Of a stretch of DNA of 49,275 bases, positions 37 through 15,335 are shown piece by piece. The notes below the pieces were generated by a model. That model did not search any database. It was given only the letters and a program-made list of their open reading frames with translations, and was not told where the DNA came from. Each line of letters opens with the position of its first letter. Position 1 is the stretch's first letter. Origin of the DNA: Candidatus Woesearchaeota archaeon (GTDB taxonomy: Archaea > Nanobdellota > Nanobdellia > Woesearchaeales > GW2011-AR4); the NCBI GenBank assembly GCA_018303505.1, contig JAGVYA010000021.1, positions 1-49,275 on the forward strand, in the 5' to 3' direction. The translations under genes were made by a program, and so were the position numbers.

Positions 37-1650
37 ATGAAATTAAACAAAAACTATATTCAAACTTTCATCTTCATACTTGTCTATCTTTTTGCCATTT
101 ATTTCTGGTCGCAGCCTTATCAAGAAAGAAAACTTCCTTATGGCGAGTATGATGCAATGTCGCATTTTGAAGTAGCTGATTACATGGCTTACAATGACAA
201 GTCATTTCAAAAACTGCCTCCTTATATTGATTTGAGATATGGATTGGACAATAAATTCAAGCCACATACTTTATGGTATCCTCCACCATTTCATACATCT
301 CTTGGCATTATAGAAGTGATTGCAGGCGATAGGGTAATTCCAATCTTCTTGCTTAATACAATAATGTCAACATTTGTCATAATAAGCGTTTATTTTGTTG
401 TAAATTCTTTATTCGGATTTCTGCCAGCAATCTTGTCAGCATTATTGATAATTTTCTCTCCACGGGATTTCATGCCTTATTTGTGGGGGCAATGGCCAGA
501 GAGATTTGCATACGCATTTGTGCCAATAATCCTTTATTGTTTTTACAAGTATCTAATAAACTATTCAAAAGAAGATAAAAAACCAACATATCTTTACTTA
601 ACAGCCTTATTCCTTGGCATAAACCTGCTTGTGCACCCTCTTGTTTTCTTCCACTCTATTCTTGGCATAGCAGTGCTTTACGTATTTTTGGCTATAAAAA
701 AGAAAAAGATTATCTTTAACTGGAAGCATTCGCTGATTGCAGCAATCATTTTTTTGGTGATTTTCTTGCTCTTTCCTTACCAGACATTTAATGTTTTTTC
801 AAGCCTTGTTGGGCCAAGCTCTGATACAGAAGGCAAAAAATCAATAGACTTGTTAAGGCTTTTCCAATGGTCTTTAAACCCAAGTGATTACGCTGGCAGT
901 GTGCCTCCTAGCTACTTTTCCTTTAGGGAGATGCATGGGCTTTGGACACTGCCTTTTTTGCTCATTGGCATAATATTCTTAGTTTTAAGAAGGGAAGAAA
1001 GGGATGTGTTTTTGATTGCATGGCTTGTAAGCCTTTACATTGCGCTTCATAGAGATATTTTTGGAATCACGTTTTTCTTGCACCGATCATTGTCTGCAAC
1101 TGCACACATATTTGCTCCTTTGACTGCGATTGGCGCAGTTTATCTTGCTAATGCTGTAAAGCTCCCTTCGAACTATAACAAATACCTTAAGTACATGATT
1201 GCTGCAGTTTTTGTTTATCTTGCCTTGTCAATAAACATGGCAAGCGCCTCAAAAATGCTGAACAAGAACACATATAATGACTTTTTTGGCACATTAAATC
1301 AAGAGGAATATGAGGCAGCTCAATGGGTGCTTGAAAATGTTCCGCAGTCAGTGAATGTAACAGTACTTGGAATTCCCTACCAATCAAATGTGTTGAGCGT
1401 CACATCTAAGAAAATAAGATGGTTCGCAGCTGTGTCGCAGCATGTAACAAGATTTTATTATTATCTTGAGAATAAGGAAGAAGTTTTAAAATCCAAAGAG
1501 TGGTATGTGATGCTGGACTATACAATGTTGCCAGCGCTTAAGGACGTTGAAACTTTCAATAATATGCAGAAATTTGAAAGCGAAGCTTTGGCAAACCACA
1601 CATTAGCATATAATAAAAATAACATAAGGGTGTATAAACTTGCTAAATAA
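37..1650 (+). CDS. Multi-pass membrane protein, probable GT-C fold glycosyltransferase
   Basis: 537 aa with many hydrophobic segments, an acidic motif after TM1 (GEYDAMSH), a WYPPPFH motif and a soluble C-terminal domain ending in YNKNNIRVYK. Paralogous to 2326..3966. TATA-like tttataaa at about 7-14. Confidence 0.7.
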   Translation: MKLNKNYIQTFIFILVYLFAIYFWSQPYQERKLPYGEYDAMSHFEVADYMAYNDKSFQKLPPYIDLRYGLDNKFKPHTLWYPPPFHTSLGIIEVIAGDRVIPIFLLNTIMSTFVIISVYFVVNSLFGFLPAILSALLIIFSPRDFMPYLWGQWPERFAYAFVPIILYCFYKYLINYSKEDKKPTYLYLTALFLGINLLVHPLVFFHSILGIAVLYVFLAIKKKKIIFNWKHSLIAAIIFLVIFLLFPYQTFNVFSSLVGPSSDTEGKKSIDLLRLFQWSLNPSDYAGSVPPSYFSFREMHGLWTLPFLLIGIIFLVLRREERDVFLIAWLVSLYIALHRDIFGITFFLHRSLSATAHIFAPLTAIGAVYLANAVKLPSNYNKYLKYMIAAVFVYLALSINMASASKMLNKNTYNDFFGTLNQEEYEAAQWVLENVPQSVNVTVLGIPYQSNVLSVTSKKIRWFAAVSQHVTRFYYYLENKEEVLKSKEWYVMLDYTMLPALKDVETFNNMQKFESEALANHTLAYNKNNIRVYKLAK

Positions 1651-1978
1651 TGAGTCAAAGGAGTCAATGGTATTTTTGTTAATTACAGTATTAATAACTC
1701 TTGTTTTTTCATATATATTATTTGGAGTAACTGGAATTAGAGTTGTTCTTGGAGTTATTTTCATTTCATCTCCATTTTATCTTATGCTAAATAATTTTGA
1801 ACTCACAGAAGGAGAAAAATTTGTCTTTTCTATTTTATTTGGACTTACCTTATTTTCCGCTTTAGTTTATCTTCTTGGACTTGTCATTTCATTTAGAATA
1901 GCAATTATTGCAACATTCTTGGTTTTTATTATAGCAGCATTTTTAATAAGGAAATACAAACCAAAGAAACAAAGCTAA
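1640..1978 (+). CDS. Small membrane protein (DUF1616-like)
   Basis: 112 aa with about 4 TM segments and an 'L..EK...S' pattern. TTG start overlaps the upstream stop; the ATG at 1667 is an alternative start. Confidence 0.6.
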   Translation: MLNNESKESMVFLLITVLITLVFSYILFGVTGIRVVLGVIFISSPFYLMLNNFELTEGEKFVFSILFGLTLFSALVYLLGLVISFRIAIIATFLVFIIAAFLIRKYKPKKQS

Positions 1979-2345
1979 TTTTTAGTTCTTTTTTTCTTGT
2001 TGCTATAATAAAACCTGCTGCTATGATTGCTGGCGGCAGCAATATAGCATGGTACTTGATATTCAGTCCAAAGAGCCCAAGATAATAGCTTAATATGCCT
2101 GCAATGCCGGCAGCAACAGCAGTTCCAATAATCAGTCTCTCGACAAAATCCAGCTTTTCTGCCCAATAAAGCATTATGAAATAACCAGGCAAAACAAAAA
2201 GCCAGAATAACGACAAAACATTTCTAAACACAACGATTAAATTCTCATTAAAAAAGACAATTTTAAATATTATCAATCCCAATGCAAACAATATTCCAAC
2301 CTGCTTAAATTCCTTTTTTACCAGCTCAAAAAGTTCTTTTTTCAA
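1929..2345 (-). CDS. Small membrane protein (DUF1616-like), paralog of 1640..1978
   Basis: LFVLPGY...LDFVERL motif, about 4 TM segments, overlaps the end of 2326..3966. Confidence 0.65.
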   Translation of the reverse strand: MKKELFELVKKEFKQVGILFALGLIIFKIVFFNENLIVVFRNVLSLFWLFVLPGYFIMLYWAEKLDFVERLIIGTAVAAGIAGILSYYLGLFGLNIKYHAILLPPAIIAAGFIIATRKKELKISFVSLVCISLLKMLL

Positions 2346-3966
2346 TGCAATCAGCCCCTACTTTATTGTTCTTCAAAATAACCACAACATCATTCTGGAA
2401 TACAACTCCAGCACCTTTGCTTACCATCTCATTAACAATCAATAAATTGTAATCAACCAAAACCTTTTGCCTGCTAACCTTGTCAAATACAAAGTAATCA
2501 AATAAGCATACATCAGCATGGTCCTGCCAAACCAGCAAGTTTCTTGCTTCCCTTTGATGCAGACCTATCTTTAAAAAAGATTTCATATAAGGCATTCCTG
2601 CTCCATGGTCTGCAGGAAACTCAGTTGCATAGTCCCTTACGATAGTTCTGTTCTTTATCAATTCAACAAAATTTTCTGGGATAATCTGGGCATGAACTCT
2701 TTTAGAGTTGCGCAAAATAGCATCTTGGTCATACACATCACCATAAAAGAAATAAATCTTTGCATCTTCATTTGTATTTTTGCTTATCCATTGAAAAGCA
2801 TCCCAATGCCACTTGTCCATTAATCCTGGAGAAGAAATCTTGTAATAAGTGGGCACATTTGGGATTGGTACGGCATTAGATAAAGCCAAAATGAATAAAA
2901 AACTTAAAGCAAAAACAGAAACAGTCCTTAATTTTTGAGGTATAAATCTAACAATAGTGTATAAGCCAAAGCCAAAGAAGAATGATAAGTAAGTTGGCCA
3001 TAGCAATCTTGGCTGAAAAGCCCTAATCCCAAAGCCTATGTAATTAGTATAACCAATCCCTAACATATACAAGCCAGCAAGTGTAACTGTATCAAACTTT
3101 TTCAGCATTACAATAGACATCACTAAGCCCAAACCCATAAATAAAAGAAGAAGTCTAAAATCAGATAAATAAAGTATAGGAGTTCCGCCCCAGTCATTTG
3201 AAATATTGAATTTGTATGGATTGACAACCATAAAGCTATTGATGGATACAAAGAGATTATAGAAGCCTATCAAGCCTGAAATAATGCCGGCAATTATTAT
3301 TTTCTTAACAAAGCTCAGAGTAAAACTTTTTGTTAATATAAGCCACACACCATATACAAAAATAAATCCAACACCGTATATCAATTCCGATGTGTGTGAT
3401 AAAGCTAACGCACCAATAAACAAGCCTAACAAAACTTCTATTTTTTTAATTTCAATTCTGGATAGTGCCCAAAAAATACATATTAGAAATAATTGGCCTG
3501 TTATTGATGCCCAGTGCCCCCATAAAAAGCCTACGTATGTTTTGTTGGAGAATATAAGTATGGATAATGGCAAAGATAGCATAGCGATATGCTTAGAATA
3601 TTTTCTAATTAGGATGTACATTACTAAAGCTGCAAGAATTGCATTGAAAAAGACCATAAAGTAAATCGTATCGTATACAGGAATGCCTGATGCAAAATAC
3701 AACAGAATTCCCAAATGATGAATTACAGGAGGATAATATCCAATTACATCCTTGTACCCTTTAACAATGTAAAAAGGCTCGAGCCTGTAATTGCCAGCAT
3801 CTTTAATTCCTTCCACTCTGGTTTGCTGCTGAAATGCATCTGAAGCACCGTAAGCATAAGGAAAATCATGCTTTAATTTATGGTCAAAGAGGTTAGAGAT
3901 TCCCAAAAACAATAAAAGTCCGAAAATAATAACCAAATAGGGTTTTTCAAGGTTCATTTCTTGCAA
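2326..3966 (-). CDS. Multi-pass membrane protein, probable GT-C fold glycosyltransferase
   Basis: 546 aa. PYAYGASDAF, YYPPVIH and LWGHW align with motifs in 37..1650. Confidence 0.7.
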   Translation of the reverse strand: MQEMNLEKPYLVIIFGLLLFLGISNLFDHKLKHDFPYAYGASDAFQQQTRVEGIKDAGNYRLEPFYIVKGYKDVIGYYPPVIHHLGILLYFASGIPVYDTIYFMVFFNAILAALVMYILIRKYSKHIAMLSLPLSILIFSNKTYVGFLWGHWASITGQLFLICIFWALSRIEIKKIEVLLGLFIGALALSHTSELIYGVGFIFVYGVWLILTKSFTLSFVKKIIIAGIISGLIGFYNLFVSINSFMVVNPYKFNISNDWGGTPILYLSDFRLLLLFMGLGLVMSIVMLKKFDTVTLAGLYMLGIGYTNYIGFGIRAFQPRLLWPTYLSFFFGFGLYTIVRFIPQKLRTVSVFALSFLFILALSNAVPIPNVPTYYKISSPGLMDKWHWDAFQWISKNTNEDAKIYFFYGDVYDQDAILRNSKRVHAQIIPENFVELIKNRTIVRDYATEFPADHGAGMPYMKSFLKIGLHQREARNLLVWQDHADVCLFDYFVFDKVSRQKVLVDYNLLIVNEMVSKGAGVVFQNDVVVILKNNKVGADCIEKRTF

Positions 3967-10449: not shown

Positions 10450-10938
10450 TTATTGGTTTTTGTGCAATCTGAGAATTCTGTTTATTAATTTGGTTGTCGA
10501 ATAACCTTTCTCCATTTTTGCAATTACAACTTTGCCGCCATTCTTTTCAACAACACCTTTTTCAATAATTTGGCTTAGCTTGTAGTCGCCAGCTTTTACA
10601 TGAACATGTGGCTTTATTTGTGAAATCCATTTTATAGGGTTTTTCTCATTAAACAAAAAAACATAGTCAATGCTTTTAAGTCCTGCCAAAACTGCTATAC
10701 GAGCTTTCTCATCATTGATTGGTCTTTTATCTCCTTTATTCTGCTTTACCGAAAAATCTGTATTAACTCCAACAATCAAAACATCTCCAAGCTTTTTTGA
10801 TTCTTCCAAATATTTGACATGCCCGAGATGAAGAATGTCAAAAATGCCGTTTGTTGTAACAATTTTTTTATTTTGTTTCTTTAGTTTTTGGACTATTGGG
10901 ATTAATTTTTTTAATGTTGTAATTTTGTTGTTTGACAT
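10450..10938 (-). CDS. rfaE2: D-glycero-beta-D-manno-heptose 1-phosphate adenylyltransferase (RfaE domain II)
   Basis: TNGIFDILHLGH, GDVLIVGVNTD, KGDKRPI, KAGDY, GYSTT. Confidence 0.9.
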   Translation of the reverse strand: MSNNKITTLKKLIPIVQKLKKQNKKIVTTNGIFDILHLGHVKYLEESKKLGDVLIVGVNTDFSVKQNKGDKRPINDEKARIAVLAGLKSIDYVFLFNEKNPIKWISQIKPHVHVKAGDYKLSQIIEKGVVEKNGGKVVIAKMEKGYSTTKLINRILRLHKNQ

Positions 10939-10950
10939 CTTAATTTTTAT

Positions 10951-11520
10951 TCACTTTTGATATTTGCTATCCTTCTTCAAAATCCATTTTGCAGCATCAA
11001 GCAAATTCTTTGCAAAATAATCCGGACTTACTTCATTTTTAGCATTAATGCCATAGCCAGTCAGCACGTGAATTGTCTTGCAGCCTACATTTTTCCCCAT
11101 TTCAAAATCGCTTTTTCTGTCGCCTATCACAAATGATTTTTTCAAGTCAATTCCAAACTCTTCTGCTGCTTCTTGAAGGAACTTTGTTTTTGGCTTGCGG
11201 CATTCGCAGTTGTCCTCTGGCTTATGAGGGCAGTAATATGTTTTTTGAATTTTTATATTCTGTTTTTTCAATTCTTTAATTAAATGGTTATTGAATTTAT
11301 TGAAATCTTCTAATGTGTAATATCCCCTTCCGATGCCTGATTGATTTGTGATAATAATTAGCTTAAAATCTTTTGATAATAATTTTAAACCTTCGACTGC
11401 ATTTGGTATTAATTTGAAATCTTCCAGCTTATGATGGTAGCCAACGTCTTCAACCAAAACGCCATCCCTATCGACTAAGATTGCTTTGTTTTTGTTTTCT
11501 CCAATTTTTGTGGTATTCAT
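10951..11520 (-). CDS. gmhB: D,D-heptose 1,7-bisphosphate phosphatase (HAD family); current N-terminus is supplied by the inserted element
   Basis: DRDG, ITNQSGIGRG, CPH..EDNCECRKP, IGDRKSD. Confidence 0.92.
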   Translation of the reverse strand: MNTTKIGENKNKAILVDRDGVLVEDVGYHHKLEDFKLIPNAVEGLKLLSKDFKLIIITNQSGIGRGYYTLEDFNKFNNHLIKELKKQNIKIQKTYYCPHKPEDNCECRKPKTKFLQEAAEEFGIDLKKSFVIGDRKSDFEMGKNVGCKTIHVLTGYGINAKNEVSPDYFAKNLLDAAKWILKKDSKYQK

Positions 11521-12289
11521 TGTATCTCTTTCTATATTCTGGGTTTTGCATTCTTCTCTGATGATTTATTTGATGTTGCTTTTTTATAAGTTCATGTCTT
11601 ATAGGATTTGCCATATACTTATAGTATCTAATCTTATCTTTTTGCCTTCTTTTTAAATTTTCTTCATTTAATCTTTTATTGTTTTCTTCTGCAAACGGTC
11701 CTAACTTGTAATTCATGCATTTAGGAATGTAATCTTTTATCAAATTTAAGAATTTCTTAATTTGTTGAACACTAAAATACAAGTAATATCTCTTATAATC
11801 TCTGTTTATGGTGCAATTTATATCAAATTTTTCTTTCAAGAAATCCACTAAAATTTTGTTTTCTTCATATGACACATAAGTGGCAATTTTCGCATTTTGA
11901 TTTATATATCCAAAAGAACCATCATCACAATACCATATAGCCAATGCTAATGGTCCTACCTTCTGCAATGTTTCTTTTGCTATACATTTCTTATTATTTT
12001 TGTAAAATATTTTAAAATAACTGGTTAATACCGGGTGTGTTTTTGTCAATAATATTATATGGTAATAAACTTTGTTTGTGCGTGAATCAAAAACCTTAAA
12101 TTCTAAAGTTTTAGGTCTAAAACAATCTAAATATTTAGCTTTATATTCTAGATATTTTTTTTGTTTGAGTGAATGCTGTATCCTAAAATTTGCATTTATT
12201 GCTTTGCCTCTCAGTTGTAATCCACCATCCCCTAACAAACTTCCAATTAAAACTTGTTCTGCATCTAAATCTACTTTAGTGTATACCAT
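11468..12289 (-). CDS. LAGLIDADG homing endonuclease (two-motif, LAGLIDADG_2-like) with basic C-terminal tail
   Basis: VLIGSLLGDGGL and LALAIWYCDDGS motifs, plus QHSLKQKKYLEYK and IPKCMNYKL. Start placed at the ATG at 12289, preceded by GGAGGT. Confidence 0.92.
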   Translation of the reverse strand: MVYTKVDLDAEQVLIGSLLGDGGLQLRGKAINANFRIQHSLKQKKYLEYKAKYLDCFRPKTLEFKVFDSRTNKVYYHIILLTKTHPVLTSYFKIFYKNNKKCIAKETLQKVGPLALAIWYCDDGSFGYINQNAKIATYVSYEENKILVDFLKEKFDINCTINRDYKRYYLYFSVQQIKKFLNLIKDYIPKCMNYKLGPFAEENNKRLNEENLKRRQKDKIRYYKYMANPIRHELIKKQHQINHQRRMQNPEYRKRYNEYHKNWRKQKQSNLSR

Positions 12290-12500
12290 TTTAATAACCT
12301 CCGCAGTTTTTGAACTGCAAGAGTTTCCTAAAATTTTTGAGCCATATGTTTTTAGGCTTACCGTAGCCGACCTTTCTGAAGGAAAGGAAAAAACATAATG
12401 AGCGAAAAAATTACTCATTTAATCATCTCTCAAGAATTAGACCTTTAAATAGTTCACGCGAAAATGTCCAGTGCTTTTTTGTCCAGTGGTACGTAATTCC
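11473..12500 (-). mobile_element. 1028-bp homing-endonuclease insertion in the 5' end of gmhB
   Basis: Bounded by two versions of the KAILV codons: AAG GCA ATT CTA GTT G (12515-12500) and AAA GCA ATC TTA GTC G (11487-11472). Removing it gives MKKAILVDRDG, coupled by ATGA to the upstream stop. Confidence 0.85.
12441..12460 (-). promoter_or_regulatory. Putative BRE/TATA promoter inside the insertion
   Basis: Minus strand reads cgcgtgaacTATTTAAAgg, preceded by two direct CACTGGACA repeats. Confidence 0.5.
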
Positions 12501-12521
12501 AACTAGAATTGCCTTTTTCAT
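12501..12521 (-). pseudogene. gmhB: Stranded original gmhB N-terminus (MKKAILV)
   Basis: ATG overlaps the TGA of the kinase gene. The peptide matches the KAILV that precedes DRDG 1 kb downstream. Confidence 0.75.
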
Positions 12522-13409
12522 AGGTTCTCAATTTCCCTTTTTATTTCGTCAATGCTTACAGAAGCAGTTCCTATTTTTCCAACTTTTATGCCTGCAGCAA
12601 TATTTGCTAATGTGGCAGCTTCTTCAAGATTTGCTCCTGATGCCATTGCAAGAGCAATTGTAGCAACAACTGTGTCGCCTGCCCCAATCAAGCTGTAAAC
12701 TTCTTTTGCATTTGCCGGGATGTGCTTTATGCTTCCATCCCTCTCAAACAAAGACATTCCTTTTTCTCCTCTTGTTATAAGCACATTTGTGTTGAGATAC
12801 TTCAACAGCTTATTGCCAATTTCTATTAAAGCATCATCACTTTCATCCTCGATATTAGTCATTTCACTTGCTTCTGCGTTATTTGGAGTTATCAAAGTTA
12901 CATTTGCATATAAGTCACGGTGCTTTGGCTTTGGGTCCACTATCACGATTTTGTTGTTTTCCCTTGATATTTGGATTAGCCTTTGGCTTATCTCAGGAGT
13001 TATAACCCCTTTTGCATAATCTGAAATTACAACAACATCAATATCTTTGATTGTTTTTTCCAGAAAAGTTATCATTGCGCTTTCTATATTTTTATGAACA
13101 TGCTCTTTTTTCTCATAATCAACCCTTAGCAATTGCTGGCTTCTTCCGACAATTCTCACTTTTTGCGTTGTTGGCTTGTCATTATCGGTGAAAATGCCGT
13201 TTGTGTTTATTCCTTTCCTTTTCAGCTCTTCAAGCAGAATATTCTTTGCTTCGTCATTTCCAGCTATTCCAACCATGAAAGCATTTCCATCAAGCGCAGC
13301 TACATTATTGGCCACATTTGAAGCTCCTCCCGGCTCATAGGTTTCTTTCAGCACATTTACAACCTGCACAGGCGCCTCTGGGCTTATTCTTTAGTAGTCT
13401 TTGTTTCAT
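12518..13409 (-). pseudogene. rfaE1: D-glycero-D-manno-heptose 7-phosphate kinase (RfaE domain I, PfkB family) with 5' deletion/frameshift
   Basis: RISPEAPV, PGGASNVA, SDYAKG, VDPK, TPN, GAGDTV. The ATG at 13409 (MKQRLLK) is out of frame with RISPEAP, there is an in-frame TAA at 13391-13393, and the conserved 'V.GD.MLD.Y' segment is absent. Confidence 0.75.
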
Positions 13410-13565
13410 TTTTTAATTTATTTTTTTCAATGTTTTATTTAATTGATAATTTTTAATTTTTTCAATTTTAATTATGTTTTATTAAATATAAACTTGATGT
13501 TTTTTGTAATTTTATTTTTTACTTTCTCAGCGCATTATTTATATTATCGTTTCAAAAAAATCTCA

Positions 13566-14765: not shown

Positions 14766-15335
14766 CTAAGATATGCTCTTATCAACAAATTCGCAAATTA
14801 TGTGGAAAACCATAAGATGGTTTTCCTGTATTACTGGAGTATTATCTGAAGGAACTATAATCTCTATGTCAGAAGCATTCTTCATCTTGCCACCTCCTTT
14901 TCCAAGAAGACTTATAACATTCATCTTCAGTTTCTTTGCTTCATCAACAGCCCTTATGATGTTTTCTGAGTTGCCGCTTGTAGATATTGCAACAAAAACA
15001 TCATTTGGTTTCGCGAGAGCATGTAGTTGCCTTGCAAAAACTGTGTGGTACCCATAATCATTTGACCATGCAGTAAGCAACGAAGAGTCTACAGTCAATG
15101 CAATCGCAGGCAGAGCTTTTCTTTCCTTTTTGTATCTGCCTACAAATTCTGCCGCAAAATGGGAAGCCTGCGCTGCGCTTCCCCCATTTCCTGCAAGAAA
15201 AACCTGGTTTCCGGTCATGAAAGCTTTTAGTATTGCCTTCGCGGCACTTTCTATATCTGCAATTATTGACTCGTCAAGCATTGCCTTCTTTACTTGAAGG
15301 CTTTCAACAATCATAGTTTTTATGTCTTCTTTCAT
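14766..15335 (-). CDS. gmhA: Phosphoheptose (sedoheptulose-7-phosphate) isomerase
   Basis: GNGGSAA, HFAAE..GR, NDYGY..VFARQ, ISTSGNS, IQE.H. AGGTGA ribosome-binding site. Confidence 0.95.
   Translation of the reverse strand: MKEDIKTMIVESLQVKKAMLDESIIADIESAAKAILKAFMTGNQVFLAGNGGSAAQASHFAAEFVGRYKKERKALPAIALTVDSSLLTAWSNDYGYHTVFARQLHALAKPNDVFVAISTSGNSENIIRAVDEAKKLKMNVISLLGKGGGKMKNASDIEIIVPSDNTPVIQENHLMVFHIICEFVDKSIS

What the first reader, a model, noticed from the sequence alone, without database searches (positions are those of the whole stretch)
10951..12521. LAGLIDADG element that invades gmhB at its catalytic codons and repairs the gene with a recoded N-terminus
Seen in sequence: the kinase stop overlaps ATG AAA AAG GCA ATT CTA GTT G (MKKAILV, 12521-12500). 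After that come 1028 bp of foreign DNA with a TATA box and a LAGLIDADG ORF. The last 53 nt of that ORF also encode, in another frame, a new gmhB start MNTTKIGENKN-KAILV (AAA GCA ATC TTA GTC) running into DRDG. The two KAILV copies differ at 4 synonymous positions in 15 nt. The endonuclease stop TAG lies within the GAT AGG codons of the HAD nucleophile motif. Established knowledge: homing endonucleases target conserved active-site codons, and free-standing ones that carry a replacement gene end are known from fungal mitochondria and phages. In archaea, LAGLIDADGs are usually found in inteins or rRNA introns. Inference: this is an intein-less, gene-repairing homing element whose recoded codons make the occupied allele cleavage-resistant.
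Basis: partly seen in the sequence, partly recalled or inferred. Interest (0 to 1): 0.9.

Follow-up and report, generated by a model that had tools for sequence, protein, structure and literature searches.

The report
Homing endonuclease cassette replacing gmhB's start
A selfish DNA-cutting gene sits inside the first codons of an archaeal sugar-phosphatase gene and keeps that gene working by bringing its own replacement start, a way of invading genes without an intron or intein that relatives also use in gyrB and a sugar nucleotidyltransferase gene.

Summary
On the minus strand, the heptose kinase stop overlaps ATG AAA AAG GCA ATT CTA GTT G. A 1028-bp insert follows (12500-11473). It carries an I-SceI-like LAGLIDADG gene (Pfam PF03161, E 2.9e-37; PDB I-SceI, E ~3e-12). 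gmhB then restarts inside the end of that gene as MNTTKIGENKNKAILV-DRDG.

Comparative data settle what it is. All 19 gmhB loci read from 19 same-genus genomes are empty and read M-x-K-A-V-F-x-DRDG directly after the kinase. Four other assemblies carry the same cassette at the same nucleotide. No intron signature was found. In two occupied loci the upstream remnant has decayed while gmhB stays intact.

More distant relatives of the endonuclease use the same layout (resident 5' remnant, endonuclease, replacement 5' end) in gyrB and in a sugar nucleotidyltransferase gene. Two nucleotidyltransferase alleles are footprints that have lost the endonuclease.

The closest precedent is the fungal mitochondrial mORF "gene hybrids", which replace 3' ends (PMC3630166). 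This is the 5'-end mirror image, in archaeal chromosomes. Cleavage of the empty site, and resistance of the recoded site, remain untested.

The parts
12518..13369 (-). D-glycero-beta-D-manno-heptose-7-phosphate kinase (PfkB / rfaE domain I). It is the upstream gene, and its stop overlaps the resident gmhB start. In this genome it lacks about 35 N-terminal model positions.
   Evidence: Pfam PfkB, E 2.1e-48. NCBIfam TIGR02198, 313 bits, matching profile positions 36-314 only. The N-terminal deletion and frameshift are seen.
12500..12521 (-). Remnant of the resident gmhB 5' end: ATG plus 6 codons (MKKAILV) plus the G of the Asp codon. It serves as the left homology arm of the homing site.
   Evidence: The position is identical to the gmhB start in 19 of 19 empty loci. 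Equivalent remnants are MKKEIVV in G004 and MTKAVFI in G047.
11473..12500 (-). The 1028-bp inserted cassette: promoter-like module, structured leader, endonuclease gene and replacement gmhB 5' end.
   Evidence: Absent from 19 of 19 related loci. Present with the same 5' boundary in G004 and G047, and with a decayed or missing remnant in L043 and L040. Both junctions are bridged by independent contigs.
12444..12492 (-). Module A. It holds two CACTGGACA repeats (12488-12480 and 12473-12465), then GTGAAC and a TATA-like TATTTAAA (12451-12444). It looks like a portable promoter.
   Evidence: The same about 50-nt module matches many loci in 38 of 43 genus genomes. In 4 of the 22 loci read, an ATG of a long ORF follows 23-26 nt after the TATA-like box. 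Here the ATG at 12418 lies 25 nt after it.
12423..12521 (-). A 32-codon ORF that continues from the remnant start (MKKAILVGITYHWTKKHWTFSRELFKGLILER*). It is probably incidental read-through of module A.
   Evidence: Its apparent conservation (HWT..HWT) is explained by the DNA repeats of module A, which occur in many unrelated contexts. The frame differs in L043.
12298..12412 (-). Module B, a structured leader. It has a long A/U-rich helix enclosing two hairpins. A further hairpin has a base that pairs 4 of the 5 nucleotides of the GGAGG Shine-Dalgarno sequence (12302-12298).
   Evidence: Nucleotide identity among the elements is highest here, 0.89-0.96. Consensus fold. 94.5% of cells are paired against 36-52% in slid controls. 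Six pairs show compensatory change. 17 double-change cells against 7.3 +/- 2.3 in shuffles, 0 of 500 reaching it. The same leader precedes a different LAGLIDADG ORF in L079, L080 and L081 and occurs in L082, and the reading frame through it is closed in L079.
11468..12289 (-). I-SceI-like two-motif LAGLIDADG homing endonuclease, 273 aa from the SD-led ATG at 12289. The longest ORF starts at 12418 and gives 316 aa.
   Evidence: PF03161 covers residues 55-223 of the 316-aa ORF. PDB hits: 6x1j at E 6.5e-13 and I-SceI 1r7m at E 3.2e-12. In the one alignment printed, to 6x1j, LIGSLLGDG lines up with LIGNILGDV and LAIWYCDDG with LAYWFMDDG. GGAGG lies 8 nt before the ATG.
11473..11520 (-). Element-borne replacement 5' end of gmhB (MNTTKIGENKNKAILV). 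It lies inside the 3' end of the endonuclease ORF in another frame.
   Evidence: Homologous extended starts occur in L043 (MNTTKTGEKKNKAILI), L040 (MNTKNLSKENIGKRKVLFL), G004 (MKNENKAVVL) and G047 (..IGKNKNKVVIL). NCBIfam GmhB models match only from residue 10.
10951..11520 (-). gmhB, the D-glycero-D-manno-heptose 1,7-bisphosphate phosphatase (HAD-IIIA). The ORF is intact.
   Evidence: NCBIfam NF006506, 165.7 bits (below its cut-off of 178). TIGR01656 and TIGR01662 are above their cut-offs. Pfam HAD families.
10450..10938 (-). Heptose 1-phosphate adenylyltransferase (rfaE domain II), the next gene of the operon.
   Evidence: TIGR02199, 192 bits, above its cut-off of 181.5.

Best explanation
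This is a free-standing homing-endonuclease cassette with no intron and no intein. It has inserted into the coding sequence of gmhB between codon 7 and the codon of the catalytic Asp of the HAD motif DxDG.

The cassette has four parts, in order:
1. A promoter-like module (two CACTGGACA repeats plus a TATA-like box).
2. A structured leader whose last hairpin pairs with the Shine-Dalgarno sequence.
3. An I-SceI-like monomeric LAGLIDADG endonuclease gene.
4. A new start codon with a replacement 5' end of gmhB, overlapping the last codons of the endonuclease gene.

gmhB is therefore translated from the element-borne ATG (11520) with a 9-residue longer N-terminus. The original start, still overlapping the kinase stop, is left as a 22-nt remnant.

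Inferred mechanism of spread: the endonuclease cuts empty alleles at or near the ..GTT G|AY MGN GAY GG.. site. The break is repaired from an occupied allele. The recipient's own first seven codons pair with the donor's remnant as the left homology arm and become the new remnant. The cassette, its replacement 5' end and a variable stretch of downstream gmhB are copied in. The occupied allele lacks an intact site because its left half-site is 1 kb away, and the element-borne copy next to DRDG differs in sequence.

Shown: the architecture, the presence/absence polymorphism at one nucleotide position, intact catalytic motifs, horizontal distribution, and the same layout in other host genes.

Inferred: cleavage specificity, use of the promoter and leader, translation of gmhB from ATG 11520, and immunity of the occupied allele.
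For: (1) Empty alleles. 19 of 19 gmhB loci from 19 same-genus genomes have no insert and start M-x-K-A-V-F-x-DRDG next to the kinase gene.

(2) Four more occupied loci in independent assemblies:
- G004: two contigs overlapping by 55 nt.
- G047: endonuclease truncated at 159 aa.
- L043: a metagenome contig.
- L040: a distant MAG.
Their gene order is the same. In G004 and G047 the 5' boundary is the same: 7 codons, then G, then NAATTNNGTACCACTGGACA.

(3) The remnants are local. G047's remnant differs at 1 of 22 nt from the empty allele in L011. Remnants encode MKKAILV, MKKEIVV and MTKAVFI. The element-borne copies form their own series.

(4) The endonuclease is decoupled from the host. It is 63-71% identical in all 10 pairs. 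The flanking kinase is 49-53% identical between L040 and the rest, but 65-77% within the genus. Occupied alleles are not one clade in the kinase tree (4 changes) or the gmhB tree (3 changes, at least 2 forced). G047's kinase is sister to an empty genome (95/98), while its gmhB groups elsewhere.

(5) Both LAGLIDADG motifs with their acidic residues are intact, and the closest solved structures are I-SceI.

(6) No splicing is needed. In all 5 occupied loci gmhB has its own in-frame start and a hydrophobic strand before DRDG (KAILV, KAILI, KAVVL, KVVIL, KVLFL). The remnant has decayed in L043 and is absent in L040.

(7) The layout is general:
- gyrB: 2 of 30 loci are occupied. The resident MEQ..SSYEAKDIQVLAGLSAVRK is fused in frame to the endonuclease, followed by a diverged new N-terminus. 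The other 28 are empty.
- NTP_transferase: of 30 loci, 2 are occupied, 2 are footprints and 25 are plain empties.
- The same layout appears in two other families of the order, in L137 and L139.

(8) Both junctions are bridged by error-free contigs from other runs.
Against: - No cleavage, expression or splicing data exist. No RNA run was available.
- In G000 both copies encode KAILV. That fits an in-situ duplication as well as a co-travelling foreign end.
- gmhB's new ATG lies 53 nt upstream of the endonuclease stop and has no clear Shine-Dalgarno sequence, so how it is translated is open.
- The trees are poorly resolved: 9 of 21 inner branches are open in the gmhB tree and 14 of 19 in the kinase tree. 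The co-conversion argument is therefore weak.
- G004 holds both an empty and an occupied locus, but the two are too divergent to be one strain's polymorphism. It could be a paralogue or a binning mixture.
- No contig that skips the insert was found in the four runs laid.
- The upstream kinase gene of this genome is N-terminally truncated, so the operon may be decaying here.
Confidence: 0.85

Rival explanations
1. The insert is a spliced intron that houses the endonuclease gene: a group I or II intron, or an archaeal bulge-helix-bulge intron. Splicing would rejoin MKKAILV to DRDG, and the MNTTK start would be fortuitous.
For: - LAGLIDADG genes of family PF03161 are typically intron-encoded. Many distant homologues are fused to mitochondrial exons (PF00662, PF00033, PF00115).
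- The 15-nt direct repeat would allow in-frame rejoining.
- A structured RNA (module B) lies inside the insert.
- In L040, and in the gyrB and NTP_transferase types, the endonuclease ORF is in frame with the upstream gene piece, as in many group I intron ORFs.
Against: - Rfam finds no intron family in 10800-12800 even at E <= 10, and nothing at gathering score in the whole window.
- Boundaries that restore the frame give either a 5' exon ending in G or an intron ending in C, not the U...G of group I. The insert does not begin GUGYG. These boundary rules are recalled, not from a call.
- Co-folding of the two junctions is no better than shuffles (69 of 200 as good). The single BHB-like match is what chance predicts, and it would splice out of frame.
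- The 5' 'exon' has decayed in L043 and is missing in L040, although gmhB is intact there.
- The element-borne KAxxx codons are conserved as a hydrophobic strand in all 5 elements.
- Module B also precedes an unrelated LAGLIDADG gene that lies between genes, not inside one.
Confidence: 0.03
2. It is a relic of one old illegitimate insertion that has since been inherited vertically and lost repeatedly. On this view there is no homing now, and the repeat is a scar of the insertion event.
For: - Only 3 of 43 genus genomes are occupied, and endonuclease copies are 63-71% identical, so no transfer is recent.
- One copy (G047) is degenerate.
- The trees cannot exclude few origins: at least 2 are forced.
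- In G000 both copies encode the same KAILV, as expected for an in-situ duplication.
Against: - The endonuclease in the distant L040 is as similar to the genus copies as they are to each other, while the flanking kinase and gmhB are far more diverged.
- The remnants resemble local empty alleles and not each other. G047's is 21 of 22 nt identical to L011's empty allele.
- The same subfamily-to-host-gene associations recur in other families of the order.
- Intact ORFs with catalytic motifs persist in 4 of the 5 elements.
Confidence: 0.09
3. It is an assembly chimera. A mobile-element contig would have been joined wrongly into the heptose operon at a short repeat.
For: - The leader is a high-copy repeat in the community. 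Depth is about 110 against about 10 in X4, with many loose ends at 12333-12502.
- G004's assembly breaks inside the element.
Against: - Five independent assemblies show the same order.
- Error-free contigs from other runs span each junction by hundreds of bases.
- gmhB would lack any start codon without the element-borne end.
Confidence: 0.01

Closest known systems
Mobile ORF elements (mORFs) that create 'gene hybrids' in fungal mitochondria. Examples are Allomyces macrogynus atp6, Glomus atp6/atp9/cox2/nad3, Rhizopus atp9 and Mortierella cox2 (PMC3630166, passages read; PMC7487136, passages read).
   Same: - An endonuclease ORF (LAGLIDADG or GIY-YIG) sits inside a coding region with no intron.
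- The element carries a diverged duplicate of the gene end, in phase with the gene core.
- The displaced native end survives next to it and resembles the relatives' sequence more than the inserted copy does.
- Horizontal origin of the inserted end is inferred.
   Different: - Those elements replace the 3' (C-terminal) end. This one replaces the 5' end, including the start codon, so it must also supply translation initiation.
- The host here is an archaeal chromosome, not a mitochondrial genome.
- This element carries its own promoter-like module and a structured leader.
- Related copies fuse the endonuclease in frame to the resident N-terminus.
- PMC7487136 mentions GIY-YIG genes duplicated with the N-terminus of atp9, so a 5' case may exist in mitochondria. 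I saw that passage only.
Free-standing phage homing endonucleases and 'intronless homing' (T4 seg and mob genes), and genes split by them (Aeh1 nrdA with mobE). These are recalled and were not read here. The general rule is quoted from the introduction of PMC13619312.
   Same: Both are free-standing endonuclease genes that spread by a double-strand break and repair from the occupied allele, with co-conversion of flanks. In phage, hairpins that hide the ribosome-binding site of the endonuclease gene are known (recalled), which is comparable to helix 4 of module B.
   Different: - Phage elements sit between genes, or split a gene into two functional pieces. They do not carry a replacement gene end.
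[quoted passage not shown] This element is an exception, because it lies within coding sequence.
I-SceI, the monomeric two-motif LAGLIDADG enzyme encoded in the yeast mitochondrial 21S rRNA group I intron.
   Same: Closest solved structures by sequence are 1r7m (E 3.2e-12) and 6x1j (E 6.5e-13). The Pfam family is the same, PF03161, and both LAGLIDADG motifs are aligned.
   Different: - It is not intron-encoded.
- It has a basic C-terminal tail of about 75 residues, whose coding sequence overlaps the new gmhB start.
- It is only distantly similar (one search prints E-values and one alignment, no percent identity).
Inteins and archaeal rRNA/tRNA BHB introns that carry LAGLIDADG domains. This is the usual archaeal setting (recalled).
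   Same: They are also targeted to highly conserved catalytic-motif codons of conserved genes, and they are polymorphic between relatives.
   Different: - There is no protein splicing. The insert's frame from the remnant closes after 32 codons, the endonuclease is in another frame than gmhB, and Pfam finds no Hint domain.
- There is no RNA splicing signature.

Membership tests
LAGLIDADG homing endonuclease (PF03161, I-SceI-like) | LAGLIDADG_2 domain with two LAGLIDADG motifs that carry the catalytic acidic residues | tested here: met
   PF03161, E 2.9e-37, full-length profile match 2-168 of 168. Alignment to 6x1j shows LIGSLLGDG and LAIWYCDDG opposite the two motifs. I-SceI chains hit at E ~3e-12.
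LAGLIDADG homing endonuclease (PF03161, I-SceI-like) | Presence/absence polymorphism at one precise site in a conserved host gene | tested here: met
   19 of 19 related loci are empty and 5 loci are occupied. The 5' boundary is identical in G000, G004 and G047.
LAGLIDADG homing endonuclease (PF03161, I-SceI-like) | Site-specific cleavage of the empty allele and not of the occupied one | not testable with these tools
   Needs an enzyme assay. Site sequences are listed.
Gene-end-replacing mobile ORF element (mORF 'gene hybrid') | Endonuclease ORF inside a coding region, with an element-borne duplicate of the gene end in phase with the gene core | tested here: met
   The gmhB ORF 10951-11520 runs from the element-borne ATG through DRDG. 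The same holds in 4 other loci and in gyrB and NTP_transferase.
Gene-end-replacing mobile ORF element (mORF 'gene hybrid') | The displaced native end persists and is closer to relatives' alleles than the inserted end is | tested here: met
   G047's remnant is 21 of 22 nt identical to an empty allele. The gyrB remnants read SSYEAKDIQVLAGLSAVRK like the 28 empties, while the inserted ends read [18 protein letters not shown] and [18 protein letters not shown]. For G000 itself both copies encode KAILV, so this locus alone is uninformative.
Gene-end-replacing mobile ORF element (mORF 'gene hybrid') | Replaces the 3' (C-terminal) end of a mitochondrial gene, as in the described cases | tested here: not met
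   Here the 5' end of chromosomal genes of an archaeon is replaced. TBP is present in the genome. So it works like an mORF but is not a member of the described set.
Group I intron | Conserved ribozyme core (Rfam Intron_gpI), with a 5' exon ending in U and an intron ending in G | tested here: not met
   No Rfam hit at E <= 10. Frame-restoring boundaries give G...G or U...C (the boundary rule is recalled).
Archaeal bulge-helix-bulge intron | A BHB motif formed by the two junctions, with cuts that restore the reading frame | tested here: not met
   Co-fold energy is -20.7 against a shuffle mean of -19.5 +/- 3.0, and 69 of 200 shuffles are as good. One weak BHB-like match has four G.U pairs, about one such match is expected by chance, and it is out of frame.
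Intein | In-frame insertion with a Hint domain and splice-junction residues | tested here: not met
   The frame entering from the remnant stops after 32 codons. The endonuclease is in a different frame from gmhB. Pfam finds no Hint or intein domain.
GmhB (heptose 1,7-bisphosphate phosphatase, HAD-IIIA) | HAD-IIIA fold with the DxDG nucleophile motif and the Cx(H)x6CxC loop | tested here: met
   TIGR01662 and TIGR01656 are above their cut-offs. The GmhB equivalog NF006506 scores 165.7 bits, just under its cut-off of 178. DRDG and CPHKPEDNCECRKP are visible. The name of the loop motif is recalled.

The most novel reading that the evidence does not exclude
A clade of I-SceI-like LAGLIDADG genes in small-genome archaea uses a third general way, beside introns and inteins, to live inside conserved protein-coding genes of cellular chromosomes. 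That way is replacement of the 5' gene end.

Each lineage targets a catalytic or nucleotide-binding motif within the first roughly 5-35 codons:
- gmhB: DxDG
- gyrB: VRKRP
- nucleotidyltransferase: LAAGxGTR

Each takes over or replaces the host's initiation signals and carries a substitute N-terminus. After the endonuclease decays, it leaves that substitute as a permanent footprint. On this reading these elements rewrite the N-termini of host proteins and move gene 5' ends between lineages. The gmhB lineage adds a portable promoter and a leader that sequesters the Shine-Dalgarno sequence. That leader is shared with other endonuclease genes, which hints at a common control system for selfish nucleases in these archaea.
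Probability: 0.6. Interest if true: 0.8.

Novelty: new variant of a known kind. Interest (0 to 1): 0.72.

Why it matters
Textbook accounts say that free-standing homing endonuclease genes are confined to intergenic sites and need an intron or intein to enter coding sequence. The introduction of PMC13619312 says so. The mitochondrial mORFs showed one exception, at 3' ends.

This locus and its relatives show the mirror-image solution, at 5' ends, in archaeal chromosomes. It occurs in at least three host genes, including gyrB. All stages of the endonuclease life cycle are visible: empty, occupied, degenerate and footprint.

Three consequences follow:
- It gives an annotation rule. A short orphan start next to an upstream gene, followed by a LAGLIDADG ORF and a gene with an odd N-terminus, is one element and not three features.
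- It offers a source of natural endonucleases whose target sites can be read directly from empty alleles.
- It is a mechanism by which the N-termini of conserved enzymes are overwritten and exchanged between lineages.

Tried and rejected
- Intron hypotheses were rejected. Rfam gave nothing at E <= 10 on the region or at gathering score on the window. The junction co-fold and BHB scan were at chance level.
- The 32-codon ORF from the remnant, and the 43-residue N-terminal extension of the 316-aa ORF, were considered as conserved peptides. I rejected this. Their conservation is that of DNA and RNA modules A and B, which occur in other contexts and frames.
- Folding the whole 216-nt leader alone is not significant (z -1.14). 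Only the alignment-based test of module B gives support. That structure was derived from the same 8 sequences, which fall into two groups.
- rRNA searches in the genome found nothing. The archaeal assignment rests on TBP. One sigma-70 region-2 hit on another contig is unexplained.
- Expression: no RNA holder was listed among the sequencing runs. All four runs laid were DNA contigs, so nothing can be said about transcripts, splicing or starts.
- No contig skipping the 1028-bp insert was seen in the four runs laid. This does not show that such alleles are absent.
- Trees were built to show co-conversion. They are too weakly resolved to carry the argument alone.
- A consistent 'immunising' difference between empty sites and element-borne sites was sought. 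The only regular difference is 16-24 nt upstream of the junction (TATGA against A-rich). T instead of C at position +3 occurs in 3 of 5 occupied and 2 of 19 empty alleles, which is too few and not independent.
- For the transaldolase-type and RadA-neighbour-type endonuclease copies (L027, L029, L034, L140; L002, L031, L141) I could not recognise a remnant. They may simply be intergenic.
- Literature searches found no description of a 5'-end-replacing endonuclease element in archaea or bacteria. Subscription journals are not covered.
No earlier findings were used.


Full report
**1. The observation**

The features lie on the minus strand of the window.

- A PfkB-type heptose-7-phosphate kinase gene ends at 12518. 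Its TGA overlaps an ATG at 12521.
- That ATG opens ATG AAA AAG GCA ATT CTA GTT G (MKKAILV, 12521-12500).
- 1028 bp follow (12500-11473) that have no counterpart in relatives.
- They contain a LAGLIDADG ORF at 11468-12418 (PF03161, E 2.9e-37).
- The last 53 nt of that ORF hold, in another frame, the start of gmhB (ORF 10951-11520: MNTTKIGENKNKAILV-DRDG...).
- The endonuclease stop TAG (11470-11468) lies across the GAT AGG codons.
- The two KAILV-coding stretches differ at 4 of 15 nt, all synonymous.

NCBIfam names the neighbours as a heptose-nucleotide operon:
- gmhA at 14766-15335.
- The kinase (rfaE domain I).
- gmhB. HAD-IIIA models are above their cut-offs. The GmhB equivalog scores 165.7 bits against a cut-off of 178.
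- The adenylyltransferase (rfaE domain II) at 10450-10938.

The genome encodes a two-repeat TBP. It is 1.3 Mb at 88% completeness. I read it as a small-genome archaeon. A DPANN-like affiliation is my inference and was not tested.

**2. Is the junction real, and is it more than chance?**

Contigs from other public runs cover both junctions without a mismatch:
- X4, 1146 nt, over 11188-12333.
- X4, 778 nt, over 12389-12900.
- X8, 834 nt, over 12104-12900.

I read gmhB loci from 19 other genomes of the same genus (L004-L022), 15 and 4.
- All 19 lack the insert.
- All 19 start M-x-K-A-V-F-x-DRDG (with small variations) at the position of the remnant.
- The start lies in an ATGA string in all 19. 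I did not check in each locus that this TGA is the kinase stop.
- None has the long MNTTK N-terminus.

**3. More occupied alleles**

A protein search with the endonuclease found 12 of 43 genus genomes with a family member. Close copies (64-71% identity; one search lists 67% and 68%) lie next to gmhB in G004 and G047. Scans of public collections added L043, a metagenome contig at 74%, and L040, a MAG whose record title names another archaeal order, at 66%.

All have the order kinase, leader, endonuclease, gmhB.

- **G004.** The element is broken over two contigs, whose ends overlap by 55 identical bases.
- **G000, G004 and G047.** The remnant is ATG plus 6 codons plus G, then NAATTNNGTACCACTGGACA. 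The insertion point is therefore the same to the nucleotide. The remnants encode MKKAILV, MKKEIVV and MTKAVFI. G047's remnant is 21 of 22 nt identical to the empty allele of L011.
- **L043.** The remnant has decayed. It is 11 nt shorter, and one copy of a 9-nt repeat is lost.
- **L040.** There is no remnant. An ATG overlapping the kinase end opens a 333-codon frame that runs through the leader into the endonuclease.

In all five loci gmhB has its own start and a hydrophobic strand before DRDG:
- G000: MNTTKIGENKNKAILV
- L043: MNTTKTGEKKNKAILI
- L040: MNTKNLSKENIGKRKVLFL
- G004: MKNENKAVVL
- G047: ..KEYQKIGKNKNKVVIL

In G047 the endonuclease is cut to 159 residues and its C-terminal tail is now in frame with gmhB.

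The stop-in-GATAGG arrangement was seen in G000 only among the loci whose end I read. In G004 the endonuclease stops about 30 nt earlier, and in L040 it stops 14 nt before the new ATG. In L043 the two ORFs overlap by 50 nt and I did not read its stop.

**4. Not an intron, not an intein**

- Rfam finds no intron family in 10800-12800 even at E <= 10, and nothing at gathering score in the window.
- Boundaries that would restore the frame do not fit group I or group II rules (recalled).
- Co-folding of the two junctions is no better than shuffled sequence (69 of 200 as good). The one bulge-helix-bulge-like match is what chance predicts, and it would splice out of frame.
- The frame entering from the remnant closes after 32 codons. 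The endonuclease is in a different frame from gmhB. No Hint domain is found.
- The strongest argument is comparative. The upstream 'exon' is decayed or missing in two occupied loci. The element-borne 5' end is kept as a coding, hydrophobic strand in all five.

**5. The endonuclease**

The closest solved structures by sequence are 6x1j (E 6.5e-13) and I-SceI (1r7m, E 3.2e-12). In the alignment printed, to 6x1j, both LAGLIDADG motifs (LIGSLLGDG and LAIWYCDDG) line up with those of the solved chain. It is therefore a monomeric two-motif enzyme with an asymmetric site (an inference from the family).

A basic tail of about 75 residues follows the domain. Its coding sequence overlaps the new gmhB start.

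**6. Mobility**

Endonuclease identity is 63-71% in all ten pairs of the five elements. The flanking kinase is 49-53% identical between L040 and the others, but 65-77% within the genus. So the endonuclease is no more diverged between distant hosts than between near ones.

In the trees, occupied alleles need 4 changes on the kinase tree; 177 of 500 label shuffles need as few, so they are not clustered. They need 3 changes on the gmhB tree, with at least 2 forced by supported branches; 14 of 500 shuffles need as few.

G047's kinase is sister to that of an empty genome (95/98), while its gmhB groups with L040 (85/59). This hints that downstream gmhB sequence was co-converted. The trees are poorly resolved, and I treat this as weak support.

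No recent transfer is visible, and I saw no strain-level polymorphism. G004 holds an empty locus as well, but that locus is too divergent to be the same strain.

**7. The same trick in other genes**

More distant family members in the genus sit at the 5' ends of other genes.

*gyrB.*
- Of 30 loci read, 28 are empty and begin MEQ...SSY(E/D)AKDIQVL(A/G)GLSAVRKRPAMYIGSTD.
- Two (G045, G041) keep that resident N-terminus up to ..SAVRK(K/R), fused in frame to the endonuclease.
- gyrB then restarts with a clearly different N-terminus: [32 protein letters not shown] or [35 protein letters not shown].
- The new ATG follows the endonuclease stop by 3 nt, or overlaps it as ATGA.
- A GGAG lies in the last endonuclease codons.

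*Sugar nucleotidyltransferase, PF00483.*
- Of 30 loci, 25 are plain empties reading M(D/E/H)A(I/V)(I/V/L)LAAGY(A/G)TRL.
- Two are occupied: a remnant M(E/D)A(I/V)IS, then the endonuclease, then the new start ..KIDAIVLAAG.
- Two (G046, G009) are footprints. The endonuclease body is gone, but about 90 nt of its 3' tail and the element-type start remain.
- One (G003) has an element-type start of unclear origin.

*The wider order.*
- In a sample of 400 other genomes of the order, 5 have a family member at E <= 1e-25.
- Two are next to gyrB (L137 has a remnant-like N-terminus; L138 has none that I recognised).
- One is next to the nucleotidyltransferase, with a remnant MKALIL (L139).
- One is upstream of a transaldolase gene, and one is near radA.

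The layout is thus a property of this endonuclease clade, not of one locus. All sites lie at the start of a conserved motif within the first 5-35 codons. A short replacement end can only serve a site that close to the start.

**8. The leader**

The 210 nt between the remnant and the endonuclease start consist of two modules.

*Module A (about 12492-12444).*
- It has two CACTGGACA repeats, then GTGAAC, then TATTTAAA.
- The same module matches many loci in 38 of 43 genus genomes.
- In 4 of 22 loci read, a long ORF starts 23-26 nt after the TATA-like box. These ORFs include other LAGLIDADG-like genes and a DNA methyltransferase.
- I read it as a portable archaeal promoter.
- It also explains the apparent conservation of the 32-codon ORF.

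*Module B (about 12412-12298).*
- It is the most conserved stretch of the element, at 0.89-0.96 nucleotide identity. The catalytic motif region is at 0.88 and most of the gene is near 0.65.
- It also precedes a different LAGLIDADG ORF downstream of an rpoD-like gene in three other genomes and occurs in a fourth (L082). In L079 the frame through it is closed, so it is non-coding.
- An 8-sequence alignment gives four helices. 94.5% of cells are paired, against 36-52% when partners are slid. Six pairs have compensatory changes. 17 double-change cells compare with 7.3 +/- 2.3 in shuffles, 0 of 500 reaching it.
- Caveat: the structure was derived from these same sequences, which form two groups.
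- Helix 4 pairs four of the five nucleotides of the GGAGG that lies 8 nt before ATG 12289. This suggests translational restraint of the endonuclease (inference).
- Contig depth over 12328-12475 is about ten times that of the flanks in run X4, with many loose ends, as expected for a repeat in the community.

**9. Mechanism proposed**

*Shown:*
- the architecture
- one precise insertion point
- empty, occupied, degenerate and footprint states
- intact catalytic motifs
- an endonuclease decoupled from host divergence

*Inferred:*
- The enzyme cuts empty alleles at about G|AY MGN GAY GG.
- The recipient's first seven codons pair with the donor's remnant and prime copying of the cassette.
- gmhB is afterwards translated from the element-borne ATG.
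- The occupied allele escapes cutting because the left half-site next to DRDG is the diverged element copy. In G000 three of the last 12 nt differ from its own remnant. In G004 and G047 many more differ.
- Whether those differences confer resistance is untested.

**10. Comparison with what is known**

The nearest precedent is the mitochondrial mORF 'gene hybrid': a LAGLIDADG or GIY-YIG ORF plus a foreign C-terminal gene end, with the native end displaced. It is described for Allomyces atp6 and Glomus atp6, atp9, cox2 and nad3 (PMC3630166, passages read). A passing mention of atp9 N-terminal duplications appears in PMC7487136 (passages read).

The present element works the same way but is its mirror image, at the 5' end. 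It therefore has to supply initiation signals. It lies in archaeal chromosomes.

The introduction of PMC13619312 (passages read) states that free-standing endonuclease genes are generally limited to intergenic sites.

My searches found no description of this arrangement in archaea or bacteria. Coverage is limited to open-access papers and preprints, and supplements were closed.

**11. Verdict**

- The claim of recoding for cleavage resistance is untested.
- It is a new variant of a known kind.
- Confidence in the cassette reading is 0.85.
- Interest is 0.72.

Noticed in passing
window 13369-13420 (minus strand), upstream end of the kinase gene: The heptose kinase gene of this genome seems N-terminally damaged. 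MKQRLLK is followed by a deletion of roughly 80 nt with a frameshift, relative to the 323-324-aa homologues in G004, G047 and L043. The remaining ORF (283 aa, GTG start) matches the rfaE domain I model only from position 36 (313 bits against a cut-off of 345). It could be a pseudogene, a shorter start or an assembly error.
   Followed up: partly
L025 (G045:C143) 1078-3497; L026 (G041:C7) 1-2604 minus; L137 (G192:C7): gyrB carries the same kind of element. The resident N-terminus up to ..SAVRK is fused in frame to a LAGLIDADG ORF. It is followed by a new, diverged gyrB N-terminus with a start that overlaps the endonuclease stop (ATGA) or lies 3 nt after it. 28 of 30 genus loci are empty.
   Followed up: yes
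L106 (G014:C16), L120 (G054:C73), L139 (G227:C15); footprints L109 (G046:C7), L114 (G009:C13): A sugar nucleotidyltransferase gene (PF00483) is invaded just before its LAAGxGTR motif, in the same way. Two alleles have lost the endonuclease body but keep its 3' tail and the element-type start, so the host protein's N-terminus stays rewritten.
   Followed up: yes
L049 (G021:C18) and L064 (G005:C57), gyrB: Two 'empty' gyrB alleles read [12 protein letters not shown], like the occupied alleles, instead of the usual RKRPAMYIGSTD. This is possibly a footprint of past occupation with co-conversion, or a resistant site variant.
   Followed up: no
window 12444-12492 (minus); L084-L105: A promoter-like module of about 50 nt (CCACTGGACAAAAAAGCACTGGACAT, then a spacer, GTGAA and a TATA-like box) recurs at many loci in 38 of 43 genus genomes. 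It lies upstream of endonuclease-like and methyltransferase ORFs and of other conserved short sequences.
   Followed up: partly
window 12298-12412 (minus); L079 1499-1635, L080 1452-1588 (minus), L081 1490-1628 (minus), L082 1452-1589 (minus): A conserved structured leader RNA with no Rfam family is shared by two unrelated LAGLIDADG gene lineages. Its hairpins covary, and its last helix pairs with the Shine-Dalgarno sequence. It is a candidate riboregulator of endonuclease translation.
   Followed up: partly
L002 (G000:C20:2652-3230), L031, L141: The window's own genome has a second PF03161 gene (33% identical) with an extra N-terminal region. It lies upstream of a small ORF and a radA-like gene. 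The same arrangement occurs in two other genomes. I recognised no remnant.
   Followed up: partly
L027, L029, L034, L140: Another subfamily of the endonuclease ends directly at the start of a transaldolase/FSA gene (PF00923) in several genomes. Whether a very short remnant exists is unclear.
   Followed up: partly
gyrB loci L047, L052, L055, L061, L071 (open frames of 1072-1169 aa); NTP_transferase loci L111, L113, L116, L118 (open frames of 687-1133 aa): Some gyrB open frames are about 400-500 residues longer than the usual roughly 650, which suggests inteins. Some nucleotidyltransferase matches lie in very long open frames read through a TAG. Neither was examined.
   Followed up: no
G004: C28 + C41 (occupied) and C69 (empty, L011): One MAG holds both an occupied and an empty kinase-gmhB locus. 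Their gmhB genes are far apart in the tree, so this is a paralogue or a mixture of two organisms in the bin, not a strain polymorphism.
   Followed up: partly
window 11953-12273, run X4: One low-depth contig (3.6x, 7 mismatches on the side laid) joins 11953 to 12273 and skips 319 nt of the endonuclease gene. It is possibly a relative's degenerate copy.
   Followed up: no
G000:C32:2136-2321: There is a sigma-70 region-2 match in an otherwise archaeal genome (TBP on C37). It could be contamination (2.9% estimated), a mobile element or horizontal transfer.
   Followed up: no
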